NCBI GenBank assembly: GCA_036477795.1
Contig: JAZGDL010000356.1
Location: 1-23,359 of the forward strand
Length of the DNA: 23,359 nt
Direction of reading: 5' to 3'
DNA from: Phycisphaerae bacterium
GTDB taxonomy: Bacteria; Planctomycetota; Phycisphaerae; UBA1845
Below the pieces are notes generated by a model. The model was given only the letters and a program-made list of their open reading frames with translations, was not told where the DNA came from and made no database searches. Of the stretch, positions 1-17,925 are shown piece by piece (within the stretch, counting starts at the first letter, position 1; every line of letters starts with the position of its first letter). Made by a program: the position numbers and the translations under genes.

Positions 1-335
1 AAAAGCGCGCGGACCGAACAACTGTCGATCGCCGAAGTCGACCAGTCGATTTCGTCGGCGACCCCCAACTCGTCGAGCAACGCGTGCCAGATTTTTTGCC
101 ACACCCCCACTACCTGCCAGTCGCGCAAACGACGCCAACAGGTCATTCCGCTGCCACAACCCATCTCTTGCGGCAGGTATTCCTACGGCGTGCCGGTCTT
201 GAGCACGAACAAAATACCCGTCAGCGCCGCGCGGTCTGGAATACGCGGCCGTCCGCCTTCTGGTTTGGGCGGCTCCGGTGGAATGTGTGGTTTGATGCGT
301 TCCCATAATTCGTCCGTGAGTAGGGGCTTGGCCAT
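1..335 (-). pseudogene. IS5-family transposase (DUF4096/HTH_Tnp_4-type N-terminus), 5' portion; continues past the left edge; interrupted by an in-frame TAG at 183-185
   Basis: Minus-strand translation from ATG 333-335 (GGAGGA RBS 8 nt upstream) gives MAKPLLTDELWERIKPHIPPEPPKPEGGRPRIPDRAALTGILFVLKTGTP-stop-EYLPQEMGCGSGMTCWRRLRDWQVVGVWQKIWHALLDELG..., the hallmark N-terminus of IS4/IS5 transposases (consensus LTDEEW..IEPLLP..RGRPR.DR..LNAILYVLRTGCPWRDLP....W.TVYRRFRRW...GVWE.I). The TAG lies exactly where the conserved Trp (TGG) of the TGxPWRxLP motif is expected, and the same frame continues to nt 1. The right end of the IS lies near 405-420 (..ggttttgttagagtgcc), not precisely defined. Confidence 0.7.
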
Positions 336-435
336 AATCGTGTCCTCCATGACATTGCGCCACACTAGATATCGGCCAAGCCACAAACCCATCAATAGGT
401 TTTGTTAGAGTGCCTAAGCCGGTATCCTCGCAAAC

Positions 436-478
436 GTCCCCGGCAGGGCTCGAACCTGCAACCTCCGGCTCCGGAACA
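436..478 (-). repeat. Displaced copy of the tRNA-Arg 3' end (anticodon loop to discriminator), direct repeat of 2798-2840; att-like
   Basis: gtccccggcagggctcgaacctgcaacctCcggctccggaa at 436-476 matches 2798-2838 (gtccccggcagggctcgaacctgcaacctTcggctccggaa) with 1 mismatch. Upstream of the anticodon loop the sequence diverges (cactg vs gtcgg) and no D-arm or acceptor 5' strand is present, so it is not a functional tRNA. Confidence 0.75.
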
Positions 479-662
479 GTGCCAGGGTCATGATACAAAG
501 GCCGCAACCTCGTTTCTGGTACTACCAGGGCGGATAGGTCTTTGCAGGTGTTGCATCGATTCTAGTGATTTGCACCCCGTTTCGGGTAGACTACCCGGTA
601 CGTTGTGAGGCGCCGGGGCCGCAAGCTCGACCGGTGGCGACGGTTTCGATTATGCTCGGAGC

Positions 663-1805
663 ATGTGCGCTTCAATTGAAGAGATAATAAAGAACCACAC
701 GACGCATGAGAAGTCGCTGAAGGACGAGGAATCCAAGGAGGCGTACAACGAAGAGGAGGCTCGGATAGCCTTCGGTGACGAATTCATCGACGCACTGAAA
801 GAAGTCAATAACGAATTCTGCGGTGATTGGTGGCAACTTGCGCTACTCCGAGGGAATGAGGATCGGGATCGAAGGACTCAGACGCTACCTGCGACCCGGC
901 CATTAACGCCGTGGAGAAAATTCCGCGCGAAATGCAAGGAAGAGTACATTCACCTCGAAGGAGCGAACCTCACGTATGCCCACCTGGAAAAGGCAAATCT
1001 TGTGGAAGCCCACCTTGAGCACGCGGATCTGCGGTACGCCCATCTCGAGCACGCGGATCTCTCTCATGTCCGCCTCGGGTGCGCGGCTCTTAGCGAGTGC
1101 AATTTGGACGACACCGATGTACGCTTCGCTAAAGGCTTGCTCTTTGACGGCAACCGTGTCACTGGTATCCGAATCGAGGGAAATGCACCCGATCCGTGGT
1201 CCAAGCTGCGGCGCACGTACACGGGGCCGTGGTTTTTCGTTCACCTGCTACTGCTGGCGGTATTCTTTGCCCCTTATGTGGGCAAGGCGGTGTACCTCAG
1301 CGGCAAATCGCATTTTCAACAGTGGTCGTTCGAGCAGTACCAGACCCTGGGCGAACGGTTGCCGGAGGTGGCAGCGATCCAAGAGTATCAGGCCAAGCTC
1401 GAGAAGGAGTTTCACGAAACGCACGAAGAGCGATGGGCGGTACTGATCCTTCTAGGCCTGGACCAAGGCTTCTGGGCGGTAGGGATGGCGATGGTCGTGA
1501 TCTTCTACAATCTGGTCCGTGGGTTTCTGACCCTTCGGGTGAGCGCTTTGCGGGACGCCGAAGAACGGTCCTCGACGACACCGAATCTGTGGGAGTATTA
1601 CGGATACTCCCATCCGCTGAGCAAAAAGCGCATCGTACCGACGATGAGGAAGACCAACCCGCTGAGATGGCCCACCGAGTGCATAGGCCTGTATCGTCTG
1701 CATGTTGCCGCGCGCGTATTGATGCTGGTTGCATTTGCGGCGGTGCTGTACAACACGATTTATTGGGTGGCCAAGACGAAGGTGTGGGTGCCAATCGTGC
1801 TGTGA
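663..1805 (+). CDS. Pentapeptide-repeat protein with C-terminal membrane domain (about 3 TM helices); acidic low-complexity N-terminus
   Basis: 380-aa ORF. Residues ~95-155 are classic pentapeptide repeats (EGANLTYAHLEKANLVEAHLEHADLRYAHLEHADLSHVRLGCAALSECNLDDTDV), encoded by three tandem 30-nt units at 981-1070. Hydrophobic segments at aa ~188-207, 258-286 and 341-367. First ~240 nt are markedly lower in GC (~50%) than the surroundings. The start at 663 is the only in-frame ATG; no strong SD. Confidence 0.7.
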   Translation: MCASIEEIIKNHTTHEKSLKDEESKEAYNEEEARIAFGDEFIDALKEVNNEFCGDWWQLALLRGNEDRDRRTQTLPATRPLTPWRKFRAKCKEEYIHLEGANLTYAHLEKANLVEAHLEHADLRYAHLEHADLSHVRLGCAALSECNLDDTDVRFAKGLLFDGNRVTGIRIEGNAPDPWSKLRRTYTGPWFFVHLLLLAVFFAPYVGKAVYLSGKSHFQQWSFEQYQTLGERLPEVAAIQEYQAKLEKEFHETHEERWAVLILLGLDQGFWAVGMAMVVIFYNLVRGFLTLRVSALRDAEERSSTTPNLWEYYGYSHPLSKKRIVPTMRKTNPLRWPTECIGLYRLHVAARVLMLVAFAAVLYNTIYWVAKTKVWVPIVL

Positions 1806-1885
1806 TGCGCTGCGCGGGCGGTCGAGCCAGTGGTGTGCCGCGGTGATCAGCGGCTGTTTGAGATTGAGAATACGAGGTTCATGCA

Positions 1886-2602
1886 ATGAAGGTATTCATC
1901 AGTTGGTCTGGAGCGCGAAGCAAAATCGTGGCGTCGGCCCTGCGCGAGTGGCTGCCCAACGTGATACAGGCCGCAGAGCCCTGGATGTCGGACAGCGACA
2001 TTGAGGCCGGTTCGCGCTGGTTTTCTGAAATATCAGGTAAGCTGAACGAGCTGCATGTGGGGATCGTGTGCGTGGTACCCGAGAACAGCCGATCTGCATG
2101 GCTGAGTTTTGAAGCTGGAGCCTTGGCCAAGGCGATCGAAGAGTCGCGTGTGTGCCCCTATCTGCTCGATATGCAAAAAGCTGACCTGGCCGGCCCGTTA
2201 TCGCAATTCCAGGCGGTTTGTGCTGATCGCGGTGGAACCTTCGATTTGCTATCCATGATCAATGGCCGTGATGAGGCGCCGGCTATTAGAGACGACGTTT
2301 TGCAAAACTCGTTTGACAAACACTGGCCGGACCTTGAACACCGTTTGCAAGCGATTGGGGAAAGGCTGGCCGGCGAGCCGGAGCCTACCGAGCGCGACCA
2401 ACGTGATATGATCCAGGAAACCCTGGGGTTGGTTCGGCAGCTTGCGCGGCAACCGACCGTCGTCGGAAGACCAACGACCTGGTTGGAAGCTCTTGCGAGT
2501 TCCATGGCACCTCAGAAGGAATTCCCCCCCAATCCGGAGCTGAAAGCATGGATAGAGCGTATATCTTTGAAGCGCGCCGAGTCAGAAAACGATCCCGGTT
2601 AA
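1886..2602 (+). CDS. TIR-like domain protein (TIR_2/DUF1863-like fold) with ~110-aa helical C-terminal extension
   Basis: 238 aa. The N-terminal 85 aa MKVFISWSGARSKIVASALREWLPNVIQAAEPWMSDSDIEAGSRWFSEISGKLNELHVGIVCVVPENSRSAWLSFEAGAL follow the bacterial TIR pattern (FISYS.. start, W...I..AI helix, I.VLS....S.W...E), including the W-x-x-x-E motif (E76, codon 2111-2113) that supplies the catalytic Glu in NADase-active TIRs. GAGG 9 nt upstream of the ATG. GC ~57%, below the local average. Confidence 0.75.
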   Translation: MKVFISWSGARSKIVASALREWLPNVIQAAEPWMSDSDIEAGSRWFSEISGKLNELHVGIVCVVPENSRSAWLSFEAGALAKAIEESRVCPYLLDMQKADLAGPLSQFQAVCADRGGTFDLLSMINGRDEAPAIRDDVLQNSFDKHWPDLEHRLQAIGERLAGEPEPTERDQRDMIQETLGLVRQLARQPTVVGRPTTWLEALASSMAPQKEFPPNPELKAWIERISLKRAESENDPG

Positions 2603-2796
2603 CGGGCAGTATCGATCCGGGAGCTGTGCGGGTTTCCTGCTGACTCTCCTTGCCCTTGTGTGCCATCATGTGTCCCTATTCGTTACGCTGCGCACTTGGG
2701 GCAGCGGTCTTCCAGAACCGCATACCCCGCGGGCGGCTCCGCCGTCACCCACCTTCGCCCACGCCGAACCCTCCGACATTTCCCGCAGACGGTGGA

Positions 2797-2870
2797 CGTC
2801 CCCGGCAGGGCTCGAACCTGCAACCTTCGGCTCCGGAAACCGACGCGCTGTCCAGTTGCGCCACGGGGAC
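2797..2870 (-). tRNA. tRNA-Arg (anticodon CCG)
   Basis: Minus-strand 74 nt: gtccccg tg gcgc aactggaca gcgc g tcggt ttCCGga gccga aggtt gcagg ttcgagc cctgc cggggac g. Perfect 7-bp acceptor stem, 4-bp D stem, 5-bp anticodon stem (one G-U), 7-nt loop with U33 and anticodon CCG followed by G37, 5-bp T stem with a TTCGAGC loop. No encoded CCA. Confidence 0.9.
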
Positions 2871-2920
2871 ACGGAGAAACTGAATGTACCGCCCGCCAGT
2901 GCGCTGTCAACGTGGGACCG

Positions 2921-3040
2921 CTGACGATTGACGATTGGGGATTGACGATTGACGATTGCCCATTCCGGGGTCGCACATCTGCGCTTCCTCCGTCCCTTCG
3001 TCCCTTCCTCTCCCTTCGTGCCTCCGTGCCTTCGTTCGAC
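2921..3040. repeat. Composite intergenic repeat, copy A: heptamer tandem array (TGACGAT)2-TGGGGAT-(TGACGAT)2, a ~45-bp spacer (attccggggtcgcacatctgcgcttcc), then an octamer array (tccgtccc ttcgtccc ttcctctc ccttcgtg cctccgtg ccttcg)
   Basis: Read directly. Homologous to copy B at 4290-4412 in the same order and orientation (the spacers align: attccgGGgtcgcaCAtcTgcGcttccTCcgtcccttcg vs attccgCCgtcgcaGAgtTgcActtccGTcgtcccttcg). A short third copy of the octamer part lies at 17476-17500. Confidence 0.85.
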
Positions 3041-3131
3041 TGGACCCTGCCACCCGCCATCGGTTACGCTTTGGGTCCGGTTCTGTTGGCGGGTAAAGTC
3101 GCCGGCGTTGGTCTGGAGACAAGGGCCGAGA

Positions 3132-4295
3132 ATGACACCGTTGGAAGCCGACACTCCATCGTTTCGATTCAATCGGGCAGAGGCCGGTGGTGGGTTGGGA
3201 GACCTGGGCACGTTCGTTCCGCTGCTGGTGGGCATGGTGAGCCAGTGCGGCCTGCAGCTGGGGCCGGCCCTGTTCTGTGCAGGCCTGATGAACGTTACCA
3301 CCGGCCTGTTGTTCCGCATTCCCATGGCGGTTCAGCCGATGAAGGCCATCGCGGCGGTCGCCATCGCGGAGGGGCTGACGCAGTCGCAGATTCTGGCTGC
3401 CGGCATCCTCACCAGTGTGGTAGTACTGCTGGTGGCCGTCACCGGCCTGCTCGATCTGCTCTGCCGCGTTATCCCGCGCAGCGTCGTCCGCGGACTGCAG
3501 CTTGCCTTGGGTTTGAAGTTGCTGACGCGCGGCTTTGCCCTGATCGTGGGAACGGACGTCTGGATCGGTTGGGACAGCATCGGCCTGGGCGTGCTGTGCG
3601 CCGCGATGGTGCTGATGCTTTACTTCTCCACGCGGGTTCCCGGGGCCCTGGCGGTCTTTGCCGTGGGGTTGATTGCCCTGGTGGCCGGGGAGCCCTCGCT
3701 CCTGTCCGAAACCCGGCTGGGGATGACGTGGAACCTTCCGGACCTTGCCGATCTGGCGGATTGGCGCACGGGCCTGTTTCGTGGGGCGTTGCCGCAGATC
3801 CCGTTGACGCTGCTCAATTCGGTCATCGCAGTGTGCGCCCTGTCGTATGACCTCTTTCCTCGCCGGGCGGCGTCGCCGCGCAAGGTGGCGATCTCCGTAG
3901 CGTTGATGAACCTCCTGTGCTGTCCGTTGGGGGGGTTGCCGATGTGTCACGGCGCGGGGGGGCTGGCGGCGCAGTATCGCTTCGGGGCCCGGACGGGCGG
4001 CAGCGTGGTCATGCTGGGCGTCGCCAAGATGCTGCTGGCCCTATTGTTGGGCAGTTCCCTTCTGCTGTGGCTGGGCCATTATCCCGAATCGGGCCTCGGC
4101 GGCCTGCGGCTCTTCAGCGGGCTGGAACTGGCGATGATCTGCCGCGACCAGCGCACGCGGGTGGATTACTTCGTGATGCTGGTGACCGCGGGGGCGTGCA
4201 TGGCGGTGAACACCGCCGTCGGCTTTGTGGTGGGGTGGCTGATGGCTGCCCTGCTGCTGTGGGGCGTCTTTCGAATCGAGCCGGCAGGGGATTGA
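3132..4295 (+). CDS. MOT1-family transporter (molybdate transporter, sulfate-permease-like superfamily)
   Basis: 388 aa from ATG 3132 (GGAGA upstream). LGDLGTFVPLLVGMVSQCGLQLGPALFCAGLMNVTTGLLFRIPMAVQPMKAIAAVAIAEGLTQSQILAAGILTSVVVLLVAVTGLLDLLCRVIPRSVVRGLQLALGL closely follows the MOT1 signature (GDLGT[FY]IP..., TGLLF.IPMPVQPMK.IAAVA, IP..VVRG.QL..GL). About 10 predicted TM segments. The longer ORF start at 2949 would read through repeat A and is rejected. Stop TGA 4293-4295 lies inside the first heptamer of repeat B. Confidence 0.85.
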   Translation: MTPLEADTPSFRFNRAEAGGGLGDLGTFVPLLVGMVSQCGLQLGPALFCAGLMNVTTGLLFRIPMAVQPMKAIAAVAIAEGLTQSQILAAGILTSVVVLLVAVTGLLDLLCRVIPRSVVRGLQLALGLKLLTRGFALIVGTDVWIGWDSIGLGVLCAAMVLMLYFSTRVPGALAVFAVGLIALVAGEPSLLSETRLGMTWNLPDLADLADWRTGLFRGALPQIPLTLLNSVIAVCALSYDLFPRRAASPRKVAISVALMNLLCCPLGGLPMCHGAGGLAAQYRFGARTGGSVVMLGVAKMLLALLLGSSLLLWLGHYPESGLGGLRLFSGLELAMICRDQRTRVDYFVMLVTAGACMAVNTAVGFVVGWLMAALLLWGVFRIEPAGD

Positions 4296-4412
4296 CGATT
4301 GGTGATTGGTGATTGCGGATTGGGGATTGGGGACTGGGGATTCCGCCGTCGCAGAGTTGCACTTCCGTCGTCCCTTCGTGCCTTCGTGCCTCCGTGCCTT
4401 CTTCCCTTCGTG
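4290..4412. repeat. Composite intergenic repeat, copy B: GATTGNN heptamer array x8 (gattgac gattggt gattggt gattgcg gattggg gattggg gactggg gattcc), spacer, then ccttcgtg/cctccgtg octamer array
   Basis: Read directly. Same architecture and orientation as copy A. Sits between the convergent 3' ends of the MOT1-like gene (stop 4295) and galE (stop 4419). Confidence 0.85.
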
Positions 4413-4418
4413 TCTTCC

Positions 4419-7846: not shown

Positions 7847-10800
7847 CTACGGACACGTCGGCCCCGTCCATGTGTCACCCCCGCCCGCGGCGGTGGCACC
7901 GAAACATTGGAAGATGTCGGCGAAGAACGTGACCTGCTGGTCCGGCACGGTGGGCCAGTTGCCCTGCGTGTCAACCTCGATCCCAGGATCAGGCCCCGTA
8001 AAGTTGGGGAATCCCGCGGCGGCAGTGTTACTGAACTGCTTGAACAAGTCGGCAAAGAACGTGGTCTGCCCGTCCTTGCTGGAGTCGCACCACACCCACG
8101 TCGGAAGGTCAGGCCGCACCGAAGCCGCGTCCGGGCCGGCGCAGTCGATGCAGCGCGCCGTCACCGTCGGTCTCGAGATAGGCCCAATGGGGTCGCAGCT
8201 TTCATCACCGATACCCTGGCAAGCGGCCGCATCCTTGTGATCGCATAAGCTCCCGTCGTCGCACACATAACCCCACGCGAAACTGGGACACACCGGCCTG
8301 CCGGTGACATACAGGGCGTTGAGACCGCCGCTGGTCCACTGATCCGGCGTCAGGAAGTCGGCCGTCGCACAGGTGGGCTCCGACGCAATGCCGATGTTGA
8401 CCAAAACAGTTCCAGCCGGGTCGTCAGGGTAGTTCGTCCGGACCAACTTCACCCAGCCCTCGTTCGACACAGGGTCGCAGCTTTGATCGCCGATGCCCTG
8501 GCAGGCGTTCGGGTCGGCCGGATCGCACTTCGATCTGTCGTCACACTCATTTCTGGTGCCGCACACGATGTGAAACGCCACTGGATCGGTAACGCTGGCA
8601 TCTGGTCGGATCTCGATGTACCGCGAGGCGATGTTGCTGATCACGACCGGCTCAAGACACGGCGGCTCGCAAACATCGGCGATCCCGTTCGCCGGGTTGA
8701 CGTCATTGCAATTCGTGCCGTTGCCATGGAACGTCGAGCCGGAGAGATTCTCGCAGCACGCTCTGTTCATCACGTCACAGCTCAGGCCGGTGATGCCGAA
8801 ACAGCAGGCACCGACTTCGGTGCTGCACACGCTGCTCGGTCCCAGCGGCGTGGACCCCTTGGCAAGACAGCAGGCGCGATCGATCTCGGTGCAGGTGCCG
8901 TCAGCATGGCAACAGGCTTCTATTCCCAAGCAGAGACTGCCGGCACCCTGGAACGCGCCGACACACTCCGCCTCCGTTGCGATGGTACAGTTGGCGTCGG
9001 CGTCGCAGCAGGCGCCGGGCCGGTCGTCACAGCAACGCCCATTGCTTGCGCTTATGCTACCCGCGAGGTTCAGCCCGGTGACCACACCCCAGATGTTCTC
9101 GACCACCACAGTGACGCAGTTTCGCCCGACCACAAACAGGTTGGGGTCGGTGGCTTTGACGTGCGTCGGTGCTGCGGTGTTGAACGACGGCGCCGGCGTC
9201 GAGCCGATCGACACACCGTTCAGGAACACTTCGGCGGCGTCGTCGGCACGCAGGTCGATGAGCAGCCGGGGGTCGCGGAAGCGCTTGTCCAGACAGAAGC
9301 AGAACTCGTAGCAGTAGTCGCCGTTGGGGCCGGTGGTGTTGGCGCTGATCCAACGGGTACCGGCGATGGTCAGCCACATAGGATTGGGGGTGATCACCAG
9401 CGCCGGCCGCGGCAGCGTGCCTTGCGGCGAGGGCTCGCAGGTCACCTCCCAGGTATCGTCGGGATCACCGATGGGAATCAAGCCGCCGGTATCGTCGTCG
9501 ACACCGGTGCCGATGTTGATGGTCAACTTCTCCGGCGGACAGCAGTTGCAGCAGATATCAACACCGCCTTGGGGGTTGTCTACGACGGTCCGTTCGCAGG
9601 CCGTACCGTCGGCACAGGTGCCGACGCAATCCGGCATTGCCGGAGGCGGCGTCGACAAGTCCACATGACACTCGTCGGTTCCAAGGCAATCGCAATCGAT
9701 GACGGTGACGTCCCCGGTGAGCAAATCGAAGTTCACGCACTTGGGTTGACAGATTTCTACGACGGGCGTGACCGGGCAAGTGATCGGCTCACAACCCTGG
9801 CCGTCTTGCGTCGGCTCGCATATGGGATCGCAGGCATCGTCGATGCCGTTGCCGTTGTTGTCACCTTCACAGGCGGACCCGACGCCCAGGAAGCTGCTAC
9901 CGGTCAAATCCGCGCAGCAGGTCTCGTCCATCTCCGCGCAGCGCTCGTTTACGCCGTCGTTGAAGCAGCAGGCCCCGACCTGCCCGCAAACGGTGCCGGC
10001 GCCGTGGAAGGTGCCGCTCCGCAGGACGCAATCAGCGAGGCTCATGACCGCGCAGGTCTCCCGGATGCCGTCCAAATCGGTATCATAGCAACACGCTCCG
10101 ACATCTATGGGCGCACAATCGCAGGTCATATCCCCGCCCTGCGGATAATCTAACGAATCGATGCTGGTATTGCCCGTCGGGCTCCCGTCGATGTGGACCT
10201 GGCAAACTTCACCCGCAACCGGGCAATCGCCGTCGCAGGACAGAATCGACCCGCTGATTTTGATGTCACCGCAACAGTCCGGCTCACAACAATTACACTC
10301 GGTCGGCTTGAAATCCCCGCCGATAAAGATCGTGACCACACTCGGCAGGCAGGTCTCAAGCAATGTGGGATCGTCGGTCAGACAGTCGCGCTTGTGCATG
10401 TTCACGCACAACGGTACCGGCGGCGCCGGCGGCAGCGGGCAGAACTCGTCGCACGTGTCGTCGATGCCGTTGCCGTTGCCGTCACCCAGACACGGCACCC
10501 CAGCGCCCTGGAAGACGCCGTTAATGTCATCACAGCAGGTCTCGTCCATGACCTCGCAGCGCTCGTTGACGCCGTCCGGGGGGGTGTCGTCGTCGAAGCA
10601 GCACGCCCCCACCTGGCCACAGCTCGTACCGGCGCCGTGGAACGTGCCGAACAGGGCGTCGCACTCGGCCTGTGTCATCTCCGCGCAGCTTTCCTTGATC
10701 CCGTCACCGTCTGCGTCGAAGCAGCAGGCCCCATCCGGGGGAAGCGTGACGCAATCGCAAGTCGCCTTGCCGGGTGGAAGACTGAACACGCTCGCGGTCG

Positions 10801-12721
10801 AAACGCCCTGCGACACGCCATTGACGAAGATGACGCAGGGGCCCTGCGGATTCGGCTCCGGACACCCGCCGAGACACGATATCTCACCGATGGCGATGTT
10901 GATCTGGATAGGCCCACACTTCTCCGTAAAGCAATCGCACGCGAGCACGTTGATCCCGGCCGCACCGATCTCAACCGAGCTAGGCCAGCACGTTGCGTTG
11001 GGATCGTCGCTGATGCAATCCGTAGCCTGCAGAGTGGCGCAGGGATCGTCCGCCGGCGGACCCGGCAGGTCACACATCTTCTCACAGTCGCAGCAAACCT
11101 CTGTGACGCCGCCAACGGTGGTCACGGTCTCAACACAAACCTCATCGGCGGCGCAATTACCTACGCACCTCGGCTGAAGAGGCGGATCGAAAGGACTGGG
11201 CTCGGGGTGACAATCGGTCGGAGTTCTACACTCACAGTCCACGACAGTGACCGCCGGTGTGGCGCTGGGATCAAATCTCAGGCAACGCGGAATACAATCT
11301 TCGCCCGGGACGGGGCATTGGAAGGTCTTGCAGTCGGACAGGTCGTCCAGCGGTTCACACACCGCCGGCTCCGGCTCGCAAGCGCAGCAGATGCGCTGTA
11401 TACCCGCGCCGATGTCGGTCACCGTGCGGACGCAGATTTCGTCAGGCGGGCAGAACCCGATGCACGATGGTTCGGCCGCGGCTGACACGTTGACATAGCA
11501 CTGGTCCGAACCGACACATTCACACAACGAAGCGGTCACTGTACCCGAATTTAGATCAACATCTACACAACGTCTTCTGCACTTTTCGGTGTCGATGGGG
11601 CACACCACGGTTGTGCATTGGTCGGTACCCGGAATCGGCTGACATTCCGCCGGCTCGCAGGCGTCGTCTATGAAATTGCCGTCGTTGTCACCCAGACAGA
11701 CCGTGCCGGACCCCAGCGGCGTGCCGCCCAACTCGTTCTCGCAGCACAGCGGGTCCACTTCATCGCAAAGGATCTCGCCCAAGGCACCGGGATAACAGCA
11801 CGCCTCGATCGCCCCGCCGCACGTTGAAGCCGCCGGCTGCACGCTGCCGCCTTTTGCCTCACAGCAGATGGGGTCCATGTCGTCGCAGGTGCCGTCCGGC
11901 AGGCAGCAGGGTTGATCACCGGTACAGACGCTTCCGTCACCACCGTAGACGCCGCCTTGAGCCTGGCACTCCTGTGCCGTAAGCGGTTCGATGCATACAT
12001 TGGGTGGCCCCAACCGGCAGCAGGCACCGGTCGGCTCAACCGGGTCGCACGGAGGGCATGTCCAATCCAACCCGCCTTGTGGATTCTGCGTCCCAACCGC
12101 GTCAGGACAGAATATCCCCGTAGGGCACTTCTCGATGCACATGACCGAACCACCCTGTACCACAGGCCGACACGCGCCGGGCTCGGGTACTTCGCAGTCG
12201 CACTCCGACACCGCAAAATCACCCGCCGACGTTTGATGAATCACCTTAGGAACACAGGCTTCCGACGGATCGTTGGGGCAGGGGCCCTTGCATTTGAGGC
12301 TGCACGTTCCCGCAAGACAAGGGTTGCACTCCGACGTTAGCTGGCATTGGCCGGGGTTCCCGCTGTCCAGACATTCGCACGCATACGAGATCGTGCCGTC
12401 GAGATTGCCCTTGCCGAGCAGCGTGCACGTAAGTGCCGGGTCGGTACACGGCTGGCTACAGAAGATCGTCCCCAAGTTCGGATTGTAGTCTACGTGGCAC
12501 ACCGGCTTGGCGCAGTCGCAGCACTCGATGCGAATGAAATTACCCGACGAATCCGCCAGAATCTCGACCGGCACACAACCTTGGGTGGCCACCGCACAGG
12601 TACCGGCGCAGCTCGTGCCCGCCGGATTGGTCGAGCACGGGGCAGCAGCCTCACTGCACACCGGCAAGATCATGATACTACAAAACGCCATCAGTCCGAT
12701 GGGGGCAATCAGCGTCTTCAT
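7847..12721 (-). CDS. Giant (1624 aa) secreted, modular, extremely cysteine-rich repeat protein
   Basis: ATG at 12719-12721 with AAGGAG 7 nt upstream; signal peptide MKTLIAPIGLMAFCSIMILPVCSEA. Two alternating module types: (1) 'ACC' modules (aa ~233-357, 665-760, 875-966, 1236-1352), e.g. ACCFDADGDGIKESCAEMTQAECDALFGTFHGAGTSCGQVGACCFDDD..GVNERCEVMDETCCDDINGVFQGAGVPCLGDGNGNGIDDTCD; (2) 'CxC...TV...CCxCE' modules x3 (aa ~381-449, 476-547, 993-1062), e.g. CRRRCVDVDLNSGTVTASLCECVGSDQCYV...CIGFCPPDEICVRTV...ICCACE. Also a Cys-poor beta-rich region (aa ~1090-1230), a duplicated CQGIGD[QE]SCDP motif and a duplicated TTFFAD[LI]F[KQ][QC]F C-terminal motif. Confidence 0.85.
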   Translation of the reverse strand: MKTLIAPIGLMAFCSIMILPVCSEAAAPCSTNPAGTSCAGTCAVATQGCVPVEILADSSGNFIRIECCDCAKPVCHVDYNPNLGTIFCSQPCTDPALTCTLLGKGNLDGTISYACECLDSGNPGQCQLTSECNPCLAGTCSLKCKGPCPNDPSEACVPKVIHQTSAGDFAVSECDCEVPEPGACRPVVQGGSVMCIEKCPTGIFCPDAVGTQNPQGGLDWTCPPCDPVEPTGACCRLGPPNVCIEPLTAQECQAQGGVYGGDGSVCTGDQPCCLPDGTCDDMDPICCEAKGGSVQPAASTCGGAIEACCYPGALGEILCDEVDPLCCENELGGTPLGSGTVCLGDNDGNFIDDACEPAECQPIPGTDQCTTVVCPIDTEKCRRRCVDVDLNSGTVTASLCECVGSDQCYVNVSAAAEPSCIGFCPPDEICVRTVTDIGAGIQRICCACEPEPAVCEPLDDLSDCKTFQCPVPGEDCIPRCLRFDPSATPAVTVVDCECRTPTDCHPEPSPFDPPLQPRCVGNCAADEVCVETVTTVGGVTEVCCDCEKMCDLPGPPADDPCATLQATDCISDDPNATCWPSSVEIGAAGINVLACDCFTEKCGPIQINIAIGEISCLGGCPEPNPQGPCVIFVNGVSQGVSTASVFSLPPGKATCDCVTLPPDGACCFDADGDGIKESCAEMTQAECDALFGTFHGAGTSCGQVGACCFDDDTPPDGVNERCEVMDETCCDDINGVFQGAGVPCLGDGNGNGIDDTCDEFCPLPPAPPVPLCVNMHKRDCLTDDPTLLETCLPSVVTIFIGGDFKPTECNCCEPDCCGDIKISGSILSCDGDCPVAGEVCQVHIDGSPTGNTSIDSLDYPQGGDMTCDCAPIDVGACCYDTDLDGIRETCAVMSLADCVLRSGTFHGAGTVCGQVGACCFNDGVNERCAEMDETCCADLTGSSFLGVGSACEGDNNGNGIDDACDPICEPTQDGQGCEPITCPVTPVVEICQPKCVNFDLLTGDVTVIDCDCLGTDECHVDLSTPPPAMPDCVGTCADGTACERTVVDNPQGGVDICCNCCPPEKLTINIGTGVDDDTGGLIPIGDPDDTWEVTCEPSPQGTLPRPALVITPNPMWLTIAGTRWISANTTGPNGDYCYEFCFCLDKRFRDPRLLIDLRADDAAEVFLNGVSIGSTPAPSFNTAAPTHVKATDPNLFVVGRNCVTVVVENIWGVVTGLNLAGSISASNGRCCDDRPGACCDADANCTIATEAECVGAFQGAGSLCLGIEACCHADGTCTEIDRACCLAKGSTPLGPSSVCSTEVGACCFGITGLSCDVMNRACCENLSGSTFHGNGTNCNDVNPANGIADVCEPPCLEPVVISNIASRYIEIRPDASVTDPVAFHIVCGTRNECDDRSKCDPADPNACQGIGDQSCDPVSNEGWVKLVRTNYPDDPAGTVLVNIGIASEPTCATADFLTPDQWTSGGLNALYVTGRPVCPSFAWGYVCDDGSLCDHKDAAACQGIGDESCDPIGPISRPTVTARCIDCAGPDAASVRPDLPTWVWCDSSKDGQTTFFADLFKQFSNTAAAGFPNFTGPDPGIEVDTQGNWPTVPDQQVTFFADIFQCFGATAAGGGDTWTGPTCP

Positions 12722-12834: not shown

Positions 12835-12945
12835 TGGGTGGGTGGCCCACCTCGTTTCGAGGTGGGGGACACGATGATCCACACACCAACGTCGAAGCTT
12901 GTCGTATCATCCAGCCCCCACCTTCAAAGAAGGTGGGGCACCCGC
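12835..12945. repeat. ~110-bp MITE/REP-like structured repeat, copy D1 (three stem-loops)
   Basis: gggtgggtggCCCACCTCGtttCGAGGTGGGggacacgatgatccacacaccaacgtcgaagcttgtcgtatcatccagCCCCACCTTCaaaGAAGGTGGGGcaccc is ~93% identical to 17813-17925. Contains a 9-bp hairpin with ttt loop, a gatgat/atcatc inverted pair around an AAGCTT core, and a 10-bp hairpin with aaa loop. Lies in the divergent promoter region between the giant gene and the sigma factor gene. Confidence 0.85.
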
Positions 12946-17475: not shown

Positions 17476-17697
17476 CTCTCCTCCGTGCCTTCGTGCCTTC
17501 TGACAGGTGGGTGGCCCACCTCGTTTCGAGGTGTATGTGTTTAGCGTACTGGGTGGCGCAGATTGATGAACCGAAAACGCCTGATCCGAGCCCCAAGCGC
17601 CAGCGCGGGGTGACTACGCGCACCCGTCGCTTGCGCTCGGGGCTCGGAATCGAGCACAAACACGCTAAACCCGTACGAGAAGGTGGGGCACCCCGGG
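17476..17697. repeat. Repeat cluster: octamer-array fragment (ctccgtgccttcgtgccttc, 17476-17500), the D-repeat 5' hairpin (17505-17533), a ~140-bp structured insert, and the D-repeat 3' end (gagaaggtggggcacccc, 17676-17695)
   Basis: Read directly. The insert has a gtttagcgt/acgctaaac inverted pair at its ends and a long imperfect hairpin ccgagccccaagcgc ... gcgctcggggctcgg (17586-17647). Confidence 0.75.
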
Positions 17698-17812: not shown

Positions 17813-17925
17813 GGTGGGTGGCCCACCTCGTTTCGAGGTGGGGGACACGATGATCCACGCGCCAACATCGGAGCTTGTCGTATCATCCAGCCCCCACCTT
17901 CAGAGAAGGCGGGGCACCCCGCCCG
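17813..17925. repeat. ~110-bp MITE/REP-like structured repeat, copy D2
   Basis: ggtgggtggcccacctcgtttcgaggtgggggacacgatgatccacgcgccaacatcggagcttgtcgtatcatccagcccccaccttcagagaaggcggggcacccc; ~93% identical to D1, same three hairpins. Confidence 0.85.

What the first reader, a model, noticed from the sequence alone, without database searches (positions are those of the whole stretch)
436..2870. 2.3-kb lower-GC segment bracketed by a 42-nt direct repeat of the tRNA-Arg(CCG) 3' end: integrase-less tRNA-integrated islet
Nucleotides 436-476 repeat nucleotides 2798-2838 (41/42 identical), which is the anticodon-loop-to-3'-end portion of the intact tRNA-Arg at 2797-2870. This is the signature left by site-specific integration into a tRNA gene (attL rebuilds the tRNA, attR is the displaced 3' piece). 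The bracketed segment contains only two genes (pentapeptide/TM protein and TIR protein), is lower in GC than the flanks, and has no integrase. It therefore looks like a minimal or decayed genomic islet, or a cargo that is mobilised in trans. The IS5 copy lies immediately outside the attR-like repeat.
Basis: partly seen in the sequence, partly recalled or inferred. Interest (0 to 1): 0.7.

Follow-up and report, generated by a model that had tools for sequence, protein, structure and literature searches.

The report
Integrase-less islet at tRNA-Arg gene
A 2.3-kb, two-gene piece of foreign DNA sits next to a tRNA-Arg gene in a Phycisphaerae genome, flanked by a duplicated tRNA end, the usual scar of site-specific integration; it has no integrase of its own, so it is an ordinary decayed or hitch-hiking island that carries a phage-type TIR defence gene.

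Summary
Window 434-476 repeats 2796-2838 (42/43), which is the anticodon loop to the 3' end (+1 nt) of an intact tRNA-Arg(CCG) on the minus strand. The fragment lies downstream of the tRNA in the same orientation, and no second full tRNA is present. The 2,319 bp between the repeats hold a pentapeptide-repeat membrane protein and a TIR protein. This stretch has lower GC (57.3%) than every same-size window outside it. It contains no integrase gene or recognisable remnant, and none is annotated from 7.3 kb on one side to 37 kb on the other. An 891-bp IS5-family element with a TAA target duplication sits 17 nt outside the repeat, so it is a later simple insertion.

The TIR belongs to a phage-borne family. 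That family includes the TIR of the validated P2-AC1 defence system. In proviruses it often lies beside a tyrosine integrase, once between a tRNA and the integrase. The best reading is a decayed, CIME-like remnant of a tRNA-integrated element, probably a prophage, that kept both att cores and two cargo genes.

No empty site could be found, because no close relatives exist in the searchable collections. This is a known kind of structure and of low interest.

The parts
1..414 (-). Right-hand part of an 891-bp IS5-family insertion sequence. It lies outside the islet and is not part of it. The window contig begins inside it.
   Evidence: The translation has a DUF4096 N-terminal transposase domain (E 1.8e-26) with an in-frame TAG. 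The full element is L001 6375-7265, with inverted repeats GGCAYTCTAACAAAAC matching 15/16.
415..417 (.). TAA target-site duplication of the IS. The other copy is at contig positions 6372-6374.
   Evidence: Read directly from the sequence. It shows a simple IS insertion with no adjacent deletion.
434..476 (-). Displaced 3' fragment of tRNA-Arg(CCG): the distal att core, covering tRNA positions 32-73 plus 1 nt. It carries G at tRNA position 43.
   Evidence: 42/43 identity to 2796-2838. It is not a full tRNA. A terminator-like hairpin lies about 65 nt further downstream on the tRNA strand once the IS is removed.
477..662 (.). Non-coding distal end of the islet (186 bp); possibly a retained att arm.
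   Evidence: No Pfam match in any frame. It holds a 13-nt near-repeat, 500-512 and 617-629, of unknown meaning.
663..1805 (+). Cargo gene 1: a 380-aa protein with a conserved N-terminal region, pentapeptide repeats (about residues 95-160) and a hydrophobic C-terminal half with 3 segments by a crude hydropathy scan.
   Evidence: Pfam Pentapeptide E 7e-25. It belongs to a conserved family that, among the hits whose source gives an organism name, comes mostly from Planctomycetota. No relatives were found in IMG/VR. Hydropathy count.
1886..2602 (+). Cargo gene 2: a 238-aa TIR-domain protein, with E76 in an invariant FEAGAL motif. It starts 80 bp after gene 1 on the same strand.
   Evidence: Pfam TIR_2 29.5 bits. 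PADLOC PDLC03016 'TIR-TM' E 6.5e-62. phrog_13899 E 1.4e-64. 37% identity to the phage P2_AC1 TIR. Invariant columns.
2603..2795 (.). Non-coding proximal end of the islet (193 bp), between the TIR stop codon and the tRNA 3' end.
   Evidence: No Pfam match in any frame. No terminator-like site on the tRNA strand.
2797..2870 (-). Intact tRNA-Arg(CCG). Its 3' part, 2796-2838, is the proximal att core and carries A at tRNA position 43.
   Evidence: ARAGORN; Rfam 62.1 bits.
2883..2910 (-). Promoter-like site just upstream of the tRNA 5' end (TTGACA-16-TACATT).
   Evidence: Consensus scan, 10 of 12 matches. This is a pattern match only.

Best explanation
A mobile element, most likely a temperate phage or another integrative element with a tyrosine integrase, once integrated into the tRNA-Arg(CCG) gene by site-specific recombination. 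The crossover was in or next to the anticodon loop.

The element's attP carried its own copy of the tRNA 3' part, with A at tRNA position 43. That copy now completes the functional tRNA at 2797-2870. The original 3' part, with G at position 43, was pushed to the far end at 434-476, still followed by its native downstream flank.

The integrase and all other mobility or phage genes were later lost by internal deletion. What remains is a 2.3-kb remnant that keeps both att cores and two accessory genes: a membrane pentapeptide-repeat protein and a phage-type TIR protein that probably acts in anti-phage defence.

In its present form it cannot move by itself. It could only be excised or carried along if an element with a matching integrase entered the same tRNA site, which is CIME-like behaviour. 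The IS5-family element 17 nt outside the distal repeat is a later, independent insertion.

What is shown: the repeat, its position and orientation, the absence of an integrase, the composition, the gene families, and the IS target duplication. What is inferred: the integration event, the deletion, the defence role and any present mobility.
For: Anatomy:
- The repeat is 42/43 identical, against 0 expected by chance.
- The fragment is a 3'-end fragment, downstream of the tRNA gene and in the same orientation. It passes the configuration, orientation, end-fragment and 2-kb length filters of the Islander algorithm and fails only the integrase filter (criteria read in PMC4383910; sequence).
- Identity begins exactly at the anticodon loop. 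This is the 'anticodon-centred' class, which makes up 2083 of 3919 Islander islands.
- It is not a tandem tRNA.

Foreign origin:
- The islet's GC is below all 223 same-size control windows, and its GC3 is 0.63-0.69 against 0.72-0.83 in the right flank.
- No integrase Pfam domain is annotated in contig positions 1-40254, and none is found in the non-coding ends.
- The IS has an intact TAA target duplication, so it did not cause the loss.
- A terminator-like hairpin follows the displaced fragment but not the rebuilt tRNA.

Phage link of the TIR family:
- 140 IMG/VR contigs encode relatives.
- It matches phrog_13899.
- In lambdoid phage mEp390 it lies on the opposite strand between Q and the holin genes, flanked by annotated terminators, a position typical of accessory 'moron' genes.
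- It is the TIR of the P2-AC1 hotspot system, which was shown experimentally to protect against lambda, LF82_P8 and P2 (PMC9122126).
- In provirus L091, the best viral hit, the order is tRNA-His, then TIR, then an integrase-like gene. This is the layout from which deleting the interior would leave an islet like this one.
- Tyrosine integrases were confirmed within 0.13-2.1 kb of the TIR gene in 7 further viral loci.
Against: No empty site or second copy of the islet was found, so insertion relative to an ancestor has not been demonstrated.

The closest searchable genomes share only 66-75% identity in the neighbouring MOT1 protein. They have no tRNA at that position and no conserved synteny, so the ancestral state is unknown.

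The left flank also has rather low GC3 (0.67-0.69), so composition alone does not separate the islet sharply on that side.

The pentapeptide protein has no relatives in viral contigs, which does not fit a purely prophage origin.

The TIR gene is not enriched near the ends of viral contigs overall: 21% lie in the outer 10% of each end, against 20% expected.

The L091 integrase hits are below Pfam's thresholds (24 bits against 27).

The last 8.4 kb of the 48.7-kb contig and the rest of the genome could not be inspected for an integrase.
Confidence: 0.72

Rival explanations
1. The islet is a still-functional minimal element that was never autonomous, or is no longer. It keeps complete attL and attR sites, including arm sites in its two roughly 190-bp non-coding ends. 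It is excised, circularised and re-integrated by a tyrosine integrase supplied in trans or in cis by another element of the same genome that targets tRNA-Arg(CCG).
For: Both att cores are almost identical (42/43). Both ends keep 186 and 193 bp of non-coding DNA, about the size of attP arms; Islander gives attP as about 250 bp in total. CIMEs with exactly this make-up are documented and can be mobilised (PMC5704250, PMC6323972).
Against: No second copy and no related element with an integrase and the same core was found in viral or metagenome collections. No repeated arm-type motif is shared between the two ends beyond chance-level short matches. No integrase is annotated in the 40 kb of contig that could be read.
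Confidence: 0.15
2. The repeat did not arise by site-specific integration. The tRNA 3' half was duplicated by a local rearrangement, such as illegitimate recombination or an IS-associated event, and the two genes between the copies are simply variable chromosomal genes.
For: An IS sits 17 nt from the distal copy. No integrase is present. The left flank is also of somewhat lower GC3.
Against: The duplicated block begins exactly at the anticodon loop and ends 1 nt after the discriminator. That matches the tRNA-gene part of a typical attP and is not an arbitrary segment. Its orientation and side are those expected for integration. The IS has an intact 3-bp target duplication, which indicates simple insertion without rearrangement. 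The interior has the lowest GC on the contig. The TIR gene belongs to a family found next to integrases and att sites in proviruses.
Confidence: 0.08
3. It is an assembly artefact: a chimeric metagenomic contig joined through a conserved tRNA sequence.
For: The sequence is a metagenome-assembled contig, and the window contig starts inside a repeated IS.
Against: Two separately deposited records, a 23.4-kb contig and a 48.7-kb contig, are identical over window 1-4092. The longer one runs through the IS into the left flank. Whether the two were assembled from independent reads is not known. A join through a shared tRNA would create a full tRNA, not a 3' fragment followed by unrelated sequence. 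The longest exact stretch of the repeat is 31 nt, which is short for mis-joining.
Confidence: 0.03

Closest known systems
tRNA-integrated genomic islands as defined by the Islander signature (a tDNA plus its displaced 3' fragment; tyrosine integrase; anticodon-centred attP class)
   Same: An intact tRNA gene plus a cognate 3'-end fragment downstream in the same orientation. The identity block runs from the anticodon loop to the 3' end. The length is above the 2-kb cut-off. The interior is compositionally distinct and carries accessory genes.
   Different: There is no integrase gene or remnant inside, so Islander's integrase filter would reject it. At 2.36 kb it is far below the usual size peaks of 13.6 and 39.9 kb.
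[quoted passage not shown]
   Same: It is flanked by two nearly identical att cores at the 3' end of a tRNA gene. It has no recombinase, relaxase or conjugation genes, only cargo.
   Different: CIMEs are defined mainly in Firmicutes, by their relation to a known ICE or IME and by demonstrated accretion and mobilisation. Here no parent or helper element is known, and the TIR gene points to a prophage rather than an ICE origin. Function of the att sites is untested.
The P2-AC1 hotspot defence system (a TIR plus 1TM and 2TM proteins; PADLOC families TIR-TM, 1TM-TIR and 2TM-TIR), validated in Rousset et al. 2022
   Same: The islet's TIR matches the same PADLOC TIR family (E 6.5e-62) and is 37% identical to the AC1 TIR over 185 residues. 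In both, a membrane-protein gene lies directly upstream on the same strand.
   Different: The 1TM and 2TM partners are absent. The upstream pentapeptide membrane protein shows no similarity to them. The islet TIR lacks the C-terminal extension of the AC1 protein (238 against 315 aa).
Type II Thoeris (a ThsB TIR plus a ThsA with TM and Macro domains)
   Same: A TIR homologue (41% identity) in provirus L092 sits 32 bp downstream of a ThsA-type TM-Macro gene. So members of this TIR family can act as ThsB-like partners of membrane effectors.
   Different: The islet has no ThsA, and no Macro, SIR2 or SLOG domain. The islet TIR hits no PADLOC ThsB profile at E <= 0.1.

Membership tests
tRNA-integrated genomic island (Islander criteria) | Intact tRNA gene plus a cognate fragment in the same replicon and the same orientation | tested here: met
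   tRNA-Arg(CCG) at 2797-2870 on the minus strand. Fragment at 434-476 on the minus strand, 42/43 identical.
tRNA-integrated genomic island (Islander criteria) | The 3' fragment lies downstream of the tRNA gene and is an end fragment, not an internal one | tested here: met
   The fragment covers tRNA positions 32-73 plus 1 nt. It lies on the 3' side of the minus-strand gene.
tRNA-integrated genomic island (Islander criteria) | A tyrosine integrase gene inside or overlapping the island | tested here: not met
   There are only two genes, neither an integrase. Stop-free stretches of at least 25 residues from all six frames of both non-coding ends give no integrase hit. No integrase Pfam domain is annotated in contig positions 1-40254.
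tRNA-integrated genomic island (Islander criteria) | Length 2-200 kb | tested here: met
   The repeat copies are 2,362 bp apart start to start; the interior is 2,319 bp.
tRNA-integrated genomic island (Islander criteria) | Insertion polymorphism: an empty site in related genomes | tested here: inconclusive
   The closest genomes (MOT1 66-75% identical) have no tRNA or shared synteny at the site. Junction and tRNA patterns gave 0 hits in metagenome and viral collections.
CIME (cis-mobilizable element) | Retains attL and attR | tested here: inconclusive
   Both core copies are present at 42/43 identity. Arm-type sites cannot be recognised without the cognate integrase, and no convincing shared motifs were found.
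CIME (cis-mobilizable element) | [quoted passage not shown] | tested here: met
   No recombinase, relaxase or conjugation domains.
CIME (cis-mobilizable element) | Derives from, and can be mobilised by, a related ICE or IME through accretion at the same site | not testable with these tools
P2-AC1 TIR + 1TM + 2TM defence system | TIR protein of PADLOC family PDLC03016 | tested here: met
   E 6.5e-62 over profile positions 1-190 of 293. The AC1 protein itself scores E 2.7e-118 against the same profile.
P2-AC1 TIR + 1TM + 2TM defence system | Adjacent 1TM-TIR (PDLC02977) and 2TM-TIR (PDLC02978) proteins | tested here: not met
   The pentapeptide protein has no PADLOC hit and no similarity to either AC1 membrane protein.
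Thoeris | A ThsA effector (SIR2-SLOG or TM-Macro) next to a ThsB TIR | tested here: not met
   No ThsA or ThsB PADLOC hit for either islet protein. ThsA was seen only next to a homologue in L092.
IS5-family insertion sequence (the neighbouring element, not part of the islet) | DDE transposase with a DUF4096 N-terminus, terminal inverted repeats and a short TNA target duplication | tested here: met
   DUF4096 E 1.8e-26. Inverted repeats match 15/16 and the duplication is TAA. The DDE part was read only from the ORF translation and was not scanned against Pfam.

The most novel reading that the evidence does not exclude
The pentapeptide-repeat membrane protein and the TIR protein could form a new two-gene anti-phage system of the Thoeris or AC1 type. 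In that reading the TIR makes a nucleotide signal or depletes NAD+, and the upstream membrane protein is the effector. The pair would travel as a minimal att-flanked cassette that an integrase supplied in trans moves between tRNA-Arg(CCG) sites in Planctomycetota.
Probability: 0.12. Interest if true: 0.5.

Novelty: new member of a known kind. Interest (0 to 1): 0.22.

Why it matters
It matters little beyond annotation. It marks a precise horizontal-acquisition scar in a poorly sampled lineage (a Phycisphaerae MAG). It also shows that a phage-type TIR defence gene reached this genome through a tRNA-Arg(CCG) integration site.

It is a reminder that island finders which require an integrase miss such remnants.

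The only part with wider potential is the untested pairing of this TIR family with a pentapeptide-repeat membrane protein. If functional, it would add an effector type to TIR-based defence.

Tried and rejected
Search for an empty site:
- 80 genome loci encoding the neighbouring MOT1 transporter were fetched. The 14 closest have no tRNA-Arg at all; the only tRNA found in any of them is a tRNA-Val downstream of MOT1 in L015. They share no synteny with either flank.
- An exact look-up of the MOT1 protein found nothing. The 99%-identical cluster representative led back to the same 48.7-kb contig.
- The tRNA 3'-half in viral contigs gave 0 hits.

Other checks that led nowhere:
- Second full tRNA: rejected.
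- More fragment copies (a tandem array): none in contig positions 1-21146.
- Integrase remnants in the non-coding ends: none.
- DNA similarity of the islet to phage or plasmid records: only generic tRNA hits.
- Fusion evidence linking the two cargo genes: the pentapeptide+TIR fusion protein P0225 is unrelated to the islet TIR, and resembles gene 1 only through generic repeats.
- A conserved partner for the pentapeptide gene: five homologue contexts have different neighbours, and no TIR appears where a neighbour is visible.
- Enrichment of the TIR gene at provirus ends: none.
- Solved-structure relatives of the TIR by sequence: none.
- IS-mediated deletion as the cause of integrase loss: rejected, because the IS lies outside the repeat and has an intact target duplication.
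- A Xer-dependent (IMEX-like) element: considered from general knowledge and set aside, because the duplicated core is a tRNA 3' part. The sequence was not scanned for a dif-like site.
Full report
**Observation.** The window carries one tRNA gene, tRNA-Arg(CCG), on the minus strand (ARAGORN 2793-2871; Rfam 2797-2870 at 62.1 bits). Repeat search finds a direct repeat, 434-476 versus 2796-2838, 42/43 identical. A 28-nt core of it occurs exactly twice in the window and in contig positions 1-21146, with none expected by chance.

Read on the tRNA strand, the repeat starts at the first base of the anticodon loop (TTCCGGA). It runs through the anticodon-stem 3' strand, variable loop, T arm, acceptor 3' strand and discriminator, plus one more base. 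The mismatch is tRNA position 43: A in the intact gene, pairing with U27, and G in the fragment.

Upstream of the fragment there is no tRNA 5' half. The Rfam tRNA model reaches only 18.2 bits there (threshold 29), and ARAGORN calls nothing.

**Source and surroundings.** The window is an entire 23,359-bp MAG contig labelled 'Phycisphaerae bacterium'. A second deposited record, JAZHCF011628374.1 (48,692 bp), contains it at an offset of 6,851. It is identical over window 1-4092. Elsewhere it differs by 7 substitutions and one extra tandem copy of a 107-nt repeat element.

The longer contig shows what lies left of the window. The window starts inside an 891-bp IS5-family element (L001 6375-7265). 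The element has inverted repeats GGCAYTCTAACAAAAC (15/16) and a TAA target duplication, whose right copy is window 415-417. Its transposase N-terminal ORF has an in-frame TAG. The IS is therefore a simple insertion 17 nt outside the distal repeat. It does not bound the islet and cannot explain the loss of genes from inside it.

Beyond the IS lies a PqqD / ScmC-HprK-like / VKOR-DsbA / NTP_transf_5-SET cluster. No integrase-family Pfam domain is annotated in contig positions 1-40254.

**Interior.** The 2,319 bp between the repeats contain two same-strand genes 80 bp apart, plus non-coding ends of 186 and 193 bp. Stop-free stretches of at least 25 residues from all six frames of the two ends give no integrase or other domain hit.

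GC is 57.3%, below all 223 same-size windows elsewhere on the contig (minimum 58.5%, mean 61.6%, sd 1.2). GC3 is 0.63-0.69, against 0.72-0.83 in the right flank. The left-flank cluster is also low, at 0.67-0.69.

A terminator-like hairpin follows the displaced fragment about 65 nt downstream on the tRNA strand once the IS is removed. None follows the intact tRNA inside the islet. This fits the fragment's flank being the original tRNA downstream region. It is weak evidence.

**Cargo gene 1 (663-1805).** This is a 380-aa protein with pentapeptide repeats (Pfam E 7e-25) and a hydrophobic C-terminal half. It belongs to a well-conserved family of unknown function; among the hits whose source gives an organism name, most are Planctomycetota. 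No member was found in IMG/VR. Five homologue contexts show different neighbours and no TIR where a neighbour is visible.

**Cargo gene 2 (1886-2602).** This is a 238-aa TIR protein (Pfam TIR_2, just above threshold) with an invariant FEAGAL motif containing E76.

- It matches PADLOC family PDLC03016 'TIR-TM' (E 6.5e-62) and phrog_13899 (E 1.4e-64).
- The same PADLOC family contains the TIR of phage P2_AC1, which is 37% identical. That three-gene hotspot locus (TIR plus two membrane proteins) was cloned and shown to protect E. coli against lambda, LF82_P8 and P2 (PMC9122126).
- In lambdoid phage mEp390 a homologue lies on the opposite strand between Q and the holin genes, flanked by annotated terminators, a position typical of accessory 'moron' genes.
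- 140 IMG/VR contigs encode relatives.
- In the best viral hit (L091) the order is tRNA-His, TIR, integrase-like gene, methylase, RecT, YqaJ (the integrase hits are below threshold).
- Pfam-confirmed tyrosine integrases lie 128-292 bp from the TIR gene in L149, L154 and L170, and 1.4-2.1 kb away in L137, L121, L146 and L151.
- In L092 the upstream gene is a ThsA-type TM-Macro protein, and one other locus has the AC1 1TM partner.

Against a simple picture, the TIR gene is not enriched at viral contig ends overall, and most homologues appear solitary.

**Interpretation.** The configuration is the classical signature of tyrosine-integrase integration into a tRNA gene. It passes every Islander filter except the integrase filter (PMC4383910). 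The identity block is of the anticodon-centred class, the commonest class in that database.

The most economical history has four steps. An integrative element entered tRNA-Arg(CCG). Its attP-borne 3' part (A43) rebuilt the gene. The native 3' part (G43) was displaced. Internal deletion then removed the integrase and the rest.

The TIR family's recurrent position next to integrases and att sites in proviruses makes a prophage origin plausible. The non-viral distribution of the pentapeptide gene leaves other origins open. [quoted passage not shown] However, neither a parent element nor mobilisation is shown.

Rivals are a still-mobilisable mini-element, a non-integrative duplication, and an assembly chimera. 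They are less likely, for the reasons given in their entries.

**What could not be done.** No empty site, second copy or helper element was found. The closest searchable genomes are only 66-75% identical in the neighbouring transporter. They lack a tRNA there and share no synteny. Exact-pattern scans of metagenome and viral collections returned nothing. Integration is therefore inferred from anatomy, not from comparison.

**Verdict.** The finding is an ordinary decayed or hitch-hiking tRNA islet, a new member of a known kind. The only mildly novel possibility is that the pentapeptide membrane protein and the TIR form a new Thoeris/AC1-like pair. Gene order and an 80-bp spacing allow this, but no conservation supports it.

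Noticed in passing
window 1-417 (full element L001 6375-7265): An 891-bp IS5-family element with 15/16 inverted repeats and a TAA target duplication. Its DUF4096 ORF carries an in-frame TAG at a position where tryptophan is expected, and the DDE part is in another frame. The MAG contig breaks inside it, so the IS is probably multi-copy in the genome.
   Followed up: partly
window 12837-12943 and 17813-17919 (also 17504-17533): A 107-nt intergenic repeat element (94% identity between copies) containing a palindromic GGTGGGTGGCCCACC motif. The 48.7-kb assembly has two tandem copies at the first site where the window has one, so copy number varies between the two assemblies.
   Followed up: partly
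window 2922-3035 and 4287-4417 (also 17480-17501): The MOT1 molybdate/sulfate transporter gene is bracketed on both sides by the same composite of short tandem arrays: a 7-nt unit (GATTGNN) followed by an 8-nt unit (CCTTCGTG). The two copies are 76% identical over 82 nt. The first array lies just upstream of the tRNA promoter-like site. Its meaning is unknown.
   Followed up: no
L001 1667-6220 (contig sequence left of the window): A cluster of NTP_transf_5-SET, a small ORF, VKOR-DsbA, PqqD and a ScmC/HPr-kinase-like gene, which looks like a peptide-modification (RiPP-type) locus. Its GC3 (0.67-0.69) is lower than that of the genes right of the tRNA.
   Followed up: no
L092 7130-8567; L091 386-2553: In IMG/VR proviruses the same TIR family appears once as a ThsB-like partner of a TM-Macro ThsA (L092) and once wedged between a tRNA-His and an integrase-like gene (L091). 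PADLOC's 'TIR-TM' profile therefore covers TIRs used in several different system architectures.
   Followed up: partly
window 7847-12721 (minus strand): A 1,624-aa ORF with internal DNA repeats of about 60-145 nt (repeat families D1, D3, D7) and no Pfam family on record for its product.
   Followed up: no
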